IMG/VR virus record: IMGVR_UViG_2534682338_000008
Coordinates: 1 to 17,844 of that record
From: a virus
Lineage: Duplodnaviria > Heunggongvirae > Uroviricota > Caudoviricetes
Reading direction: 5' to 3' (one strand)
Length of the DNA: 17,844 nt
Shown: positions 2,301-2,827 of the stretch, in pieces
Layout: every line of letters begins with the position of its first letter
Numbering within the stretch: the stretch's first letter is position 1
Position numbers and translations under genes: made by a program
The notes under the pieces: model-generated
Seen by the model: only the letters and a program-made list of their open reading frames with translations
Told to the model about the DNA's origin: nothing
Database searches by the model: none

Positions 2301-2338
2301 AAATATCCTTAACTATTACTATTATTATAAGGTTATTT

Positions 2339-2791
2339 ATGGACATTAAAGAAAGATTAAAACTATATGAAGGTACTAAAGAATACCAACGAGTACGCGG
2401 ATACTATCGACAAGACAAGTTCTACCCATATGTAGATACCGAAGGGTACGCTACAGTGGGATATGGGCATAAGATCCTAGATAGTGAGCGTGAAAAATTT
2501 AAAAACGGTATCAGTGCCATTGATGCAGATTTACTACTAGCATGGGATATTGACCGTACTATCAAGGATGTTAAAACATTGGGCTTGGACTTACCGAAGG
2601 ACTGGCAAGACTTCTTAGTTATTATGGCCTTTCAGTTGGGTTTAGGTGGTGTTAAGAAGTTCAAGAAGATGATTGCAGCACTACACCGCAAGGATTGGAA
2701 GGAGGCGATTATTCAGGCTAAAGATAGTCTATGGTATCGTCAGACACCTAACCGCGTTAAAGATATGATTTATCAATTAGTAAACAAATAG
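2339..2791 (+). CDS. T4-type lysozyme (GH24 muramidase), probable endolysin
   Basis: 150-aa protein that aligns with T4 lysozyme as I recall it: Glu11 in LYEG, the DTEGYxTxGxGH catalytic block, and the C-terminal SLWYRQTPNRVKDMI against T4 SRWYNQTPNRAKRVI. No signal peptide or hydrophobic N-terminus. AAGG 8 nt upstream of the ATG. Confidence 0.88.
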   Translation: MDIKERLKLYEGTKEYQRVRGYYRQDKFYPYVDTEGYATVGYGHKILDSEREKFKNGISAIDADLLLAWDIDRTIKDVKTLGLDLPKDWQDFLVIMAFQLGLGGVKKFKKMIAALHRKDWKEAIIQAKDSLWYRQTPNRVKDMIYQLVNK

Positions 2792-2800
2792 CAAAAAGAA

Positions 2801-2827
2801 AAGGGGCAATAAGCCCCTTATTTTTTT
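2801..2827. terminator. bidirectional rho-independent terminator
   Basis: AAGGGGC-AATAA-GCCCCTT hairpin (7-bp stem) followed by A+T7 on the plus strand and preceded by an A-rich run (U-rich on the minus strand). Sits between the lysozyme stop (2791) and the stop of the minus 88-aa ORF (2818-2820, inside the stem). Confidence 0.6.

What the first reader, a model, noticed from the sequence alone, without database searches (positions are those of the whole stretch)
2301..2827. Lysozyme as an isolated, convergently transcribed unit without an obvious adjacent holin or spanin
The T4-type lysozyme is the only plus-strand gene in the region. It is bounded on the 3' side by a bidirectional terminator shared with the structural operon, and on the 5' side it diverges from a minus-strand cassette across only 38 bp. 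It has no signal or signal-anchor sequence, so a holin is needed, but none is adjacent in the usual holin-endolysin-spanin order. The nearest membrane-protein candidates are the 88-aa N-terminal-TM coiled-coil protein (2818-3084) and the 97-aa two-helix protein (674-967).
Basis: partly seen in the sequence, partly recalled or inferred. Interest (0 to 1): 0.45.

Follow-up and report, generated by a model that had tools for sequence, protein, structure and literature searches.

The report
Flipped endolysin inside a lysis cassette
The lone plus-strand lysozyme gene is the endolysin of an E. coli prophage, turned round by a single-gene inversion inside a conserved lysis cassette whose probable holin lies three genes away; the layout is unusual and no spanin is present, but in kind it is an ordinary holin-endolysin system.

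Summary
ORF 2339-2791 (+) is a T4-type GH24 lysozyme with no signal or SAR segment. It lies 38 bp from a divergent minus-strand gene and ends at a two-way hairpin terminator.

It is not a functional orphan. In 68 related prophage loci the block tmcc88 | lys | GIY-YIG, o192, o106, h97 is syntenic and under purifying selection.
- In nine loci (Serratia, Rouxiella and IMG/VR contigs) the lysozyme is collinear with its neighbours and heads a lys-to-h97 unit that follows the same terminator.
- The window therefore shows a clade-wide inversion of one gene.

The 97-aa protein belongs, at borderline score, to the PF11351 holin family (ICP1 TeaA, RcGTA) and is the best holin candidate.

The 88-aa protein has N-out/C-in topology, so it is not an i-spanin. 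It resembles the Mu gp25 releasin in architecture only.

No spanin exists in the window or in a complete relative. The Rouxiella relative carries Rz/Rz1 at the cassette end.

A conserved ATAAATA motif sits about 33 nt upstream of lys in 69/69 loci. It sits upstream of the GIY-YIG gene only where the lysozyme is inverted. I infer it is a promoter, which makes the 38-bp spacer a face-to-face promoter pair.

Verdict: a new variant of a known kind, of moderate interest.

The parts
655..670 (.). Hairpin AGCCCC-ATAA-GGGGCT, 4 nt after the h97 stop codon. It is followed by TTTTTATT on the minus strand. It is the likely terminator of the giy-to-h97 unit, and the plus-strand ORF 1-651 converges on it.
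   Evidence: Read directly from the sequence. The consensus scan did not list it.
674..967 (-). h97: 97-aa membrane protein and best holin candidate. It has an N-terminal amphipathic helix, a charged linker and two TM helices at about 52-72 and 74-96.
   Evidence: PF11351 GTA_holin_3TM at E 1.4e-4, 22.8 bits against a cut-off of 24.8; phrog_3427 holin at 3e-4. Fifteen of 26 family members hit PF11351 and no other family. Homologues are named '3TM-type holin'. A homologue was found in 62 of the 68 related loci. dN/dS is 0.06.
964..1284 (-). o106: conserved soluble 106-aa protein of unknown function, lying between the endolysin and the holin.
   Evidence: No family hit. Syntenic. dN/dS is 0.06-0.16.
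1288..1866 (-). o192: conserved soluble 192-aa protein of unknown function with a basic C-terminal third.
1863..2300 (-). giy145: stand-alone GIY-YIG nuclease domain protein. It is the first gene of the minus-strand unit that ends with h97.
   Evidence: PF19835 SegE_GIY-YIG at 1e-16. Y26, Y36, G38, E99 and N114 are invariant in 23 homologues. It is conserved in all loci that reach that far except L038 and L039.
2297..2342 (.). Control region. It is an imperfect palindrome, CATAAATAtCCTTA / TAAGGtTATTTATG. ATAAATA at 2299-2305 (+) lies 33 nt before the lys ATG. ATAAATA at 2340-2334 (-) lies 33 nt before the giy ATG. I infer a face-to-face promoter pair.
   Evidence: Arms 2298-2311 and 2328-2341 are 93% complementary. 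The motif is upstream of lys in 69/69 loci. TAAATA is upstream of giy in 56/56 inverted loci and 0/9 collinear loci.
2339..2791 (+). lys150: soluble GH24 (T4-type) lysozyme, the endolysin.
   Evidence: It is the only muralytic domain found in the window. It is also the only one annotated in a complete relative.
2793..2827 (.). Bidirectional intrinsic terminator (stem 2801-2819, with A- and T-tracts on either side), shared by lys and tmcc88.
   Evidence: The same AAAGGGGC...GCCCCTTT hairpin lies at the 3' end of the tmcc gene in both gene orders.
2818..3084 (-). tmcc88: 88-aa bitopic membrane protein with an acidic N-tail, a TMD at 3-24, then RDK and a coiled coil. It is predicted N-out/C-in and is a possible lysis accessory. 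In this window its last 11 residues are frameshifted.
   Evidence: A gene of this architecture sits next to lys in 64/69 loci. PF10805 DUF2730 scores 18.6 bits against a cut-off of 24.9. An extra A in an A-run distinguishes it from relatives.
3120..3126 (-). ATAAATA motif 35 nt upstream of the tmcc88 ATG, in the 61-bp spacer after o215.
   Evidence: ATAAATA is present in 26/41 inverted-type loci and TAAATA in 41/41. In many loci it overlaps the o215 stop codon, so this evidence is weaker.

Best explanation
The window is the late end of a roughly 32-kb, low-G+C siphovirus-like prophage of Escherichia coli, most likely that of strain H120, inserted in msyB.

Genes 674-3084 form one lysis module. 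The lysozyme (2339-2791) is a cytoplasmic endolysin. It accumulates in the cell and reaches the wall only when the 97-aa protein h97 (674-967) forms holes in the inner membrane. h97 is a PF11351-type holin encoded as the last gene of the adjacent minus-strand unit giy-o192-o106-h97.

In the sister clade all of these genes are collinear: tmcc, terminator, ATAAATA, then lys-giy-o192-o106-holin. In the clade of the window only the segment [motif + lys] has been inverted. As a result:
- lys now ends at the hairpin that already terminated the tmcc gene, which is why the terminator works in both directions;
- the giy-to-h97 unit has gained its own copy of the motif, overlapping the lys start codon.

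The two motifs face each other across 38 bp. If they act as -10-type promoter elements, endolysin and holin transcription start from overlapping, mutually obstructing promoters of the same class. The two leaders would be complementary over about 16 nt.

No spanin is encoded, so how the outer membrane is breached is unknown.

Shown: gene identities, topology by hydropathy, synteny, the inversion, and the placement of the motif and the terminator.
Inferred: holin activity, promoter function, that the inverted order is the derived one, and any role of tmcc88, giy, o192 or o106 in lysis.
For: Endolysin:
- PF00959 match, similarity to T4 lysozyme and the catalytic residues.
- No hydrophobic N-terminus.
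- No other muralytic domain in the window or in the complete relative.

Holin:
- PF11351 is the sole Pfam family, hit by 15/26 members with a best E of 1.9e-6.
- Precomputed PF11351 hits and '3TM-type holin' names on homologues.
- PF11351 contains the experimentally studied ICP1 holin TeaA (PMC7182436) and the putative RcGTA holin rcc00556, for which that paper notes no direct evidence of lytic activity (PMC3423380).
- In the Rouxiella locus L066 the same slot holds a small hydrophobic protein followed by Rz and Rz1 (phrog_1152 at 1.3e-17, phrog_456 at 2.4e-9). The cassette end is therefore where the membrane-acting lysis genes sit.

Module and inversion:
- Synteny in 68 loci, 59 inverted and 9 collinear.
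- The collinear lysozymes form a single split in the tree.
- The terminator stays at the tmcc 3' end in both gene orders.
- dN/dS is 0.06-0.16 for all the genes.

Motif:
- Upstream of lys in 69/69 loci.
- Upstream of giy in 56/56 inverted and 0/9 collinear loci.
- Absent upstream of h97 and o215.
- It is the commonest 7-mer in the upstream windows, in 7 of 21. All 9 copies in the window lie at gene boundaries and in sense orientation.
- The placement is the same in the relative.
Against: - The window's h97 scores below the Pfam gathering threshold, 22.8 against 24.8. It shows two rather than three clear TM segments, and it lacks the charged C-terminus typical of holins. No NCBIfam model hits it.
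- Three conserved genes of unknown role lie between the endolysin and the holin.
- No spanin or other outer-membrane disruptor is identifiable, so the pathway is incomplete as described.
- ATAAATA is not over-represented in total: 9 copies against 11.3 expected. It has no -35 partner and is a poor sigma-70 -10 element.
- No sigma factor or activator could be recognised in the relative's early genes.
- In the inverted loci each motif coincides with the other gene's ribosome-binding spacer, which could contribute to its conservation.
- There is no outgroup to fix the direction of the inversion.
Confidence: 0.65

Rival explanations
1. The 88-aa TM-coiled-coil protein (2818-3084) is the true hole-former or an indispensable co-holin or releasin. 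h97 would then be an unrelated membrane protein at the prophage end, for example a superinfection exclusion protein.
For: - A gene of this architecture abuts the lysozyme in 64/69 loci, in both gene orders.
- It has its own motif and terminator.
- It gives weak hits to DUF2730 (Mu releasin), XhlA and Rz-like PHROGs.
- Its dN/dS is about 0.1.
Against: - It is missing in L007, L009-L011 and L041, where lys, giy, o192, o106 and (except at the contig end in L041) h97 persist.
- The window copy has lost the conserved C-terminal KIERILTILE motif through a frameshift.
- All family hits are below threshold and no stronger than generic coiled-coil hits.
- hhalign against Mu gp25 gives only 22-43% probability.
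- h97 has a real holin-family signal.
Confidence: 0.12
2. The lysozyme is not the lysis enzyme. It would be a virion-associated or accessory muramidase, and the real lysis genes would lie elsewhere in the genome.
For: - The best PHROG hit is to the lysozyme domain of 'baseplate hub subunit and tail lysozyme' proteins (phrog_13211, 1.9e-35).
- The gene follows the tail genes.
Against: - It is a free-standing 150-aa enzyme.
- The complete relative (32.4 kb) has no other lysin, holin or spanin.
- In collinear relatives it heads the unit that ends in a holin, and in L066 in a holin plus Rz/Rz1.
Confidence: 0.05
3. The arrangement is decay in a cryptic prophage. The inversion would have uncoupled the endolysin from its operon, and lysis would no longer work.
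For: - A frameshift in tmcc88.
- The tail tube gene is interrupted.
- No spanins.
- An internal stop in h97 of L019.
Against: - The inverted order is shared by 60 loci across many genera, with intact ORFs and dN/dS of 0.06-0.16.
- The tube-gene interruption is a full-length group I intron, which is expected to splice.
- The tmcc88 frameshift is found in only one assembly.
Confidence: 0.08
4. ATAAATA is not a promoter. Its conservation would reflect A+T-rich translation-initiation spacers and stop-codon contexts, and lys would be transcribed from an ordinary promoter inside the giy coding region.
For: - The total count is at chance level.
- In inverted loci the motif is the reverse complement of the other gene's SD-to-ATG spacer.
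- Upstream of tmcc it often overlaps the o215 stop codon, TAC-TAA-ATA.
- No cognate factor was found.
Against: - In the 9 collinear loci the motif precedes lys with no gene on the opposite strand, directly after a terminator where a restart is needed.
- It is present upstream of giy only where the inversion removed giy from the lys unit.
- SD spacers are not normally invariant across lysozymes of 46-96% identity.
Confidence: 0.25

Closest known systems
Canonical holin plus soluble endolysin lysis (lambda S105/R; T4 t/e)
   Same: A cytoplasmic muramidase with no export signal depends on a small membrane protein encoded in the same late module. The enzyme is T4 gpe-like (GH24) with the E/D/T catalytic residues.
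   Different: - Gene order is endolysin first and holin last, with three unrelated genes between them.
- The endolysin is on the opposite strand as its own unit.
- There is no dual-start antiholin motif.
- There is no Rz/Rz1.
PF11351 (GTA_holin_3TM) holins: Vibrio phage ICP1 TeaA and the putative RcGTA holin rcc00556
   Same: h97 and its homologues hit only this family. It is a small membrane protein linked to a lysozyme.
   Different: - The window copy is 2 bits below the family threshold.
- It matches only profile positions 41-116 of 123.
- It shows two clear TMDs plus an amphipathic N-terminal helix rather than three TMDs.
- It is untested.
Phage Mu gp25 'releasin' (DUF2730, PF10805; PMC9239132)
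   Same: tmcc88 is about 90 aa. It has an acidic N-tail, an N-terminal TMD predicted N-out/C-in and a cytoplasmic coiled coil, and it is encoded next to the endolysin. Some DUF2730 proteins are also paired with cytoplasmic endolysins.
   Different: - All sequence matches are sub-threshold, and profile-profile probability is 22-43%.
- The phage is not transposable: it carries a serine recombinase.
- The endolysin has no SAR domain to release.
- A holin candidate is present, whereas Mu has no holin.
Spanin-less phages such as phiKT, with the disruptin gp28 (bioRxiv 10.1101/515445)
   Same: This is a phage of a Gram-negative host without any recognisable i-/o- or u-spanin. [quoted passage not shown]
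   Different: No small cationic amphipathic peptide gene was recognised here. A close relative of the cassette (Rouxiella, L066) does carry Rz/Rz1.
Face-to-face promoters of coliphage 186 (pR/pL), and T4 late promoters (TATAAATA). Both are from my own knowledge and were not tested here.
   Same: Two start signals point at each other over a short distance. The motif resembles the T4 late -10 element and likewise lacks a -35 box.
   Different: - The spacing here is far tighter, with 28 bp between the motifs.
- Promoter activity is unproven.
- No gp55-like factor is recognisable.

Membership tests
GH24 / T4-type phage lysozyme (PF00959) | Sequence match above the curated threshold | tested here: met
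   35 bits against a cut-off of 22.3. A family profile matches T4 lysozyme chains at E 4.5e-20.
GH24 / T4-type phage lysozyme (PF00959) | Catalytic Glu11 / Asp20 / Thr26 equivalents | tested here: met
   E11 and T39 are invariant and D33 is nearly invariant in 16 homologues. D33 and T39 align to T4L D20 and T26. The E11 equivalence is read from the YEG motif; HMMER did not align it.
GH24 / T4-type phage lysozyme (PF00959) | Muralytic activity | not testable with these tools
   Needs a zymogram or turbidity assay.
PF11351 GTA_holin_3TM | Score at or above the Pfam gathering threshold | tested here: inconclusive
   The window copy scores 22.8 bits against 24.8. Fifteen of 26 homologues hit at E <= 0.01, with a best E of 1.9e-6, and no other family is hit. 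Many close homologues carry precomputed PF11351 hits.
PF11351 GTA_holin_3TM | Three transmembrane helices | tested here: inconclusive
   Kyte-Doolittle hydropathy shows one hydrophobic block at 52-96, which is two helices. Residues 1-17 are amphipathic and carry E/K/D. Profile positions 1-40 are unmatched. No dedicated TM predictor was available.
Holin (functional class) | Small membrane protein encoded with the endolysin in a late unit | tested here: met
   97 aa, in the same module in 63 of 69 loci, counting the window. In collinear loci it is in the same strand-unit as lys.
Holin (functional class) | Highly charged hydrophilic C-terminal tail | tested here: not met
   The protein ends ...LLIMVGGS. 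The charged segment lies before the TMDs, at residues 18-50.
Holin (functional class) | Lethal hole formation that releases the endolysin | not testable with these tools
   Needs co-expression and knockout experiments.
DUF2730 / Mu gp25 releasin (PF10805) | Score at or above the gathering threshold, or significant profile-profile match to gp25 | tested here: not met
   - Window copy: 18.6 bits against 24.9.
- No member has an E-value below about 5e-5: 15/24 of the close set and 6/42 of the wider set hit at E <= 0.01.
- hhalign probability is 43% and 22%.
- Generic coiled-coil families score similarly.
DUF2730 / Mu gp25 releasin (PF10805) | N-terminal TMD with N-out/C-in topology, encoded within 5 genes of the endolysin | tested here: met
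   The N-tails are acidic and lack K/R, and R-D-K/R follows the TMD in the family. The gene is directly adjacent to lys. Topology rests on the positive-inside rule only.
DUF2730 / Mu gp25 releasin (PF10805) | Resides in a transposable (Mu-like) phage and pairs with a SAR endolysin | tested here: not met
   The relative has a large serine recombinase and no transposase. The endolysin has no SAR segment. PMC9239132 notes, however, that some DUF2730 proteins are paired with cytoplasmic endolysins.
Two-component spanin (Rz/Rz1) | i-spanin: N-in type II TMD with a periplasmic coiled coil | tested here: not met
   The charge distribution of tmcc88 predicts the opposite topology. The Rz-like PHROG hits are weak, at 5e-5 and 8e-4.
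Two-component spanin (Rz/Rz1) | o-spanin: a lipobox lipoprotein ORF that is embedded, overlapping or adjacent | tested here: not met
   There is no lipobox ORF anywhere in the window. There is none on the cassette strand in 68 of 69 loci. Positive control: the same scan found Rz1 in L066, and PHROGs confirmed it.
GIY-YIG homing endonuclease | GIY-YIG catalytic domain | tested here: met
   PF19835 scores 61.7 bits against 25. Y26, Y36, G38, E99 and N114 are invariant.
GIY-YIG homing endonuclease | Appended DNA-binding domain and sporadic (mobile) distribution | tested here: not met
   The protein is only 145 aa, which is the nuclease domain alone. It is present in all loci that reach that far except L038 and L039 and diverges in step with its neighbours, at dN/dS 0.07-0.13.
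Intrinsic (rho-independent) terminator | G+C-rich hairpin followed by a T-run, here on both strands | tested here: met
   for the window. The hairpin is conserved in 44/60 inverted loci by a strict test, and the other loci have imperfect or longer stems. Termination itself was not tested.
T4-type late promoter | TATAAATA element plus a gp55-like sigma factor | tested here: inconclusive
   The motif is (C/T/A)ATAAATA and it is placed like a promoter. No sigma-like protein is recognisable among the relative's early genes, which are all ORFans.

The most novel reading that the evidence does not exclude
This enterobacterial prophage family may run a spanin-independent lysis pathway with new components. 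Candidates are the N-out membrane-tethered coiled-coil protein that always flanks the endolysin, and the conserved GIY-YIG, o192 and o106 genes between endolysin and holin. The whole late region would be driven from T4-late-like ATAAATA promoters read by an unrecognised phage factor. The face-to-face promoter pair at 2297-2342 would act as a mutual-exclusion switch that sets the ratio or timing of endolysin against holin transcription.
Probability: 0.15. Interest if true: 0.6.

Novelty: new variant of a known kind. Interest (0 to 1): 0.35.

Why it matters
The finding turns an apparent orphan lysozyme into a testable map of a lysis module in an uncharacterised prophage family. That family has no cultured relative and occurs in about 0.6% of complete E. 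coli genomes and in many other Enterobacterales.

It offers a natural comparison between inverted and collinear versions of the same cassette. That comparison can show how a phage rewires promoters and terminators after a single-gene inversion.

It also adds a Gram-negative phage without spanins whose near relative still has them. This helps in asking what replaces spanins.

None of this overturns current understanding of phage lysis.

Tried and rejected
- Cultured relatives: megablast of 1-6000 against INPHARED found no match. tblastn of h97 and o192 against phages gave one marginal hit each. There is no cultured relative to borrow annotation from.
- NCBIfam and PADLOC gave nothing useful for the cassette proteins.
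- Recent homing-endonuclease insertion splitting the cassette: rejected. The GIY-YIG gene is conserved and selected in nearly all loci, including the collinear ones.
- tmcc88 as an i-spanin: rejected on topology and for lack of a lipoprotein partner.
- tmcc88 as a bona fide DUF2730 member: this looked promising. It weakened when the family was widened: 6/42 hits and hhalign probability 22%. Only the architectural resemblance is kept.
- GIY-YIG profile against the PDB: nothing.
- Late regulator in the relative's early genes: none recognisable in Pfam or PHROGs.
- Lipoproteins upstream of the terminase in the relative (152 and 126 aa) were considered as spanins. They were set aside because they have no C-terminal TMD, no partner and are large.
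- Rfam found no RNA family in 2200-3200.

Full report
**1. The observation**

ORF 2339-2791 (+) encodes 150 aa. It matches Pfam Phage_lysozyme at 35 bits against a cut-off of 22.3. A profile of it and 15 relatives hits T4 lysozyme at E 4.5e-20, with D33 and T39 aligned to T4L D20 and T26. E11, in a YEG motif, is invariant.

Its highest 19-residue hydropathy is 0.89, so it has no signal or SAR segment.

The upstream minus-strand ORF starts at 2300, which makes the spacer 38 bp. Downstream, a hairpin at 2801-2819 (7 bp, 5 G-C pairs) is followed by T-runs on both strands and overlaps the stop codon of the 88-aa ORF.

All other genes from 652 to 17679 are on the minus strand. ORF 1-651 is on the plus strand.

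**2. What the element is**

The window has no near match among cultured phages. Its exact lysozyme is encoded in many E. coli/Shigella assemblies beside mdtG. The exact 88-aa protein is that of E. coli H120. The prophage interrupts msyB.

Relatives are prophages of Enterobacteriaceae, Serratia and Rouxiella, and of 33 of 5426 complete E. coli genomes.

A complete relative in E. coli WGI31CT is 32.4 kb with 39% G+C. It is inserted in yegD by a large serine recombinase, and the h97 homologue is its last gene.

**3. The neighbourhood is one conserved module**

tblastn of the window's proteins against 68 loci shows the block h97-o106-o192-giy | lys | tmcc88, followed by the tail-tip genes, in all of them.
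- giy is absent only in L038 and L039.
- A TM-coiled-coil gene flanks lys in 64 of 69 loci.
- dN/dS between the window and three relatives is 0.06-0.16 for every gene.

The GIY-YIG gene (PF19835, 1e-16) is therefore not a recent homing insertion.

**4. The inversion**

In nine loci (L046-L051, L055, Serratia L065, Rouxiella L066) the lysozyme lies on the same strand as all its neighbours. The order is J, o98, o215, tmcc, hairpin, lys, giy, o192, o106, h97.

Those nine lysozymes form a single split in a neighbour-joining tree. The AAAGGGGC...GCCCCTTT hairpin stays at the 3' end of the tmcc gene in both gene orders.

The window's layout is thus an inversion of the segment [upstream motif + lys] alone. 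This explains why the terminator is shared and works in both directions. That the inverted form is the derived one is an inference from parsimony; there is no outgroup.

**5. The holin candidate**

h97 has an amphipathic N-terminal helix, a charged linker and a hydrophobic block at 52-96 that makes two helices.

Its only Pfam family is PF11351 GTA_holin_3TM, at 22.8 bits against a cut-off of 24.8. Fifteen of 26 homologues hit it, with a best E of 1.9e-6, and none hits anything else. Many close homologues carry precomputed PF11351 hits or the name '3TM-type holin'.

PF11351 includes the ICP1 holin TeaA (PMC7182436). It also includes rcc00556, the putative RcGTA holin, for which no direct evidence of lytic activity had been presented (PMC3423380).

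In Rouxiella L066 the h97 slot is taken by a 90-aa hydrophobic protein. An Rz-like i-spanin (phrog_1152, 1.3e-17) and an overlapping Rz1-like lipoprotein (phrog_456, 2.4e-9) follow it. The end of this cassette is therefore where the membrane-acting lysis genes sit.

Membership of PF11351 is borderline, and holin activity is inferred.

**6. The 88-aa protein**

Across the family the N-tail is short, acidic and free of K/R. The TMD is followed by R-D-K/R and a coiled coil. The positive-inside rule gives N-out/C-in, which is the opposite of an i-spanin.

Pfam DUF2730 is the family of the Mu gp25 releasin. That protein is N-out/C-in, lies within five genes of the endolysin, and had so far been seen only in transposable phages (PMC9239132). 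DUF2730 is hit below threshold: 18.6 bits against 24.9, in 15/24 close homologues and 6/42 wider ones. hhalign against gp25 gives 43% and 22% probability. Generic coiled-coil families score as well.

I therefore keep only the architectural resemblance.

The gene is absent in five loci. In this window an extra A in an A-run replaces the conserved C-terminal KIERILTILE. Only the H120 assembly shows this change, so it may be a homopolymer sequencing error.

**7. Spanins**

A lipobox scan finds no candidate in the window. It finds none on the cassette strand in 68 of 69 loci, while it does recover Rz1 in L066.

The complete relative has two large lipoproteins and a secreted protein upstream of the terminase. 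None has a C-terminal TMD or a partner.

About 15% of phages are reported to lack spanins (bioRxiv 10.1101/515445). This family appears to be among them, although a near relative retains Rz/Rz1.

**8. Expression signals**

ATAAATA lies 26-45 nt upstream of the lys ATG in 69 of 69 loci, amid otherwise divergent sequence. In collinear loci it follows the terminator, and no gene lies on the opposite strand there.

TAAATA lies upstream of giy in 56/56 inverted loci and 0/9 collinear ones. It is absent upstream of h97 and o215.

In the window all nine copies sit at gene boundaries in sense orientation, and seven lie 29-57 nt before a start codon. ATAAATA is the commonest 7-mer in the upstream windows. 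The relative shows the same placement.

The total count is not above chance, at 9 against 11.3 expected. No -35 box or cognate factor was found. Promoter function is an inference, and the likeness to the T4 late TATAAATA is only a lead.

If the inference holds, the motifs at 2299-2305 (+) and 2340-2334 (-) form a face-to-face pair inside a 14-nt, 93% inverted repeat. The two leaders would overlap by about 16 nt.

**9. Other genes**

- o192 and o106 have no family.
- o215 and o98 are tail-tip accessory genes shared with lambdoid phages such as HK639.

**10. Verdict**

This is a standard holin-endolysin system in an unusual, clade-specific layout: a flipped endolysin, three extra conserved genes, a flanking N-out coiled-coil membrane protein and no spanin. 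It is a new variant of a known kind, of moderate interest.

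Noticed in passing
window 12167-12895 (-); intron 12510-12734 (-): The tail tube gene is split into ORFs of 58 aa (12719-12895) and 96 aa (12167-12457). Together they are collinear with the intact 152-aa tube protein of the WGI31CT relative. The insert is a full-length group I intron: Rfam RF00028, 84 bits against a gathering score of 50, E 1.9e-20, model positions 1-253. It carries no ORF. The same split is called in five other assemblies..
   Followed up: partly
window 12968-16603 (-): A 1211-aa protein has an N-terminal ~150 aa that resemble the tail tube protein (shared GDKD.VVTK motif). 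The rest is a long fibre ending in a Peptidase_S74 chaperone domain. It appears to be a tube-fibre fusion encoded just upstream of the plain tube gene.
   Followed up: no
window 2850-2860 (minus-strand A-run in tmcc88): One extra A relative to L001, L002, L067 and L003 shifts the last 11 codons of the 88-aa ORF away from the family-wide KIERILTILE ending. This exact protein is on record in only one contig, that of E. coli H120, so it could be a homopolymer sequencing error.
   Followed up: partly
window 1-651 (+): A 216-aa protein with a hydrophobic N-terminus converges on the h97 terminator. It lies between the lysis cassette and the msyB attachment junction. Divergent homologues (38-54% identity) occupy the same spot in L001, L027, L031, L036, L066 and L068. 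There is no Pfam or PADLOC assignment. It is probably a lysogen-expressed moron.
   Followed up: partly
L069 900-9400 (E. coli WGI31CT prophage, early region): Every early gene of the complete relative is an ORFan in Pfam and PHROGs, except one HNH nuclease-like protein. No replication, repressor or late-regulator gene is recognisable. The element has 39% G+C, far below its enterobacterial hosts.
   Followed up: partly
L066 11859-12685 (Rouxiella sp. T17): The most divergent relative replaces h97 with a 90-aa hydrophobic protein (phrog_402, function unknown) plus an overlapping Rz/Rz1 spanin pair at the end of the same cassette.
   Followed up: yes
e.g. L061 7198-7446 (+), L018 2393-2641 (+), L001 724-969 (+): An ~82-aa lipoprotein (phrog_7757, function unknown) is encoded on the opposite strand beyond h97 in about ten loci. 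It is another prophage-end moron, not an o-spanin by size, strand or composition.
   Followed up: partly
L019 1160-1450 (-); L038 and L039 between o192 and lys: The h97 homologue of L019 has an internal stop codon. L038 and L039 lack the GIY-YIG gene altogether, leaving about 200 bp between o192 and lys.
   Followed up: no
window 4352-4358, 9158-9164, 12159-12165, 12965-12975, 16639-16645 (all minus strand): Further ATAAATA copies lie at junctions inside the structural operon. They precede o67, the distal-tail-protein-like gene, the tail chaperone gene, the tube gene and the 1211-aa fibre gene. The same places carry the motif in the WGI31CT relative, which suggests many internal start signals in the late region.
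   Followed up: partly
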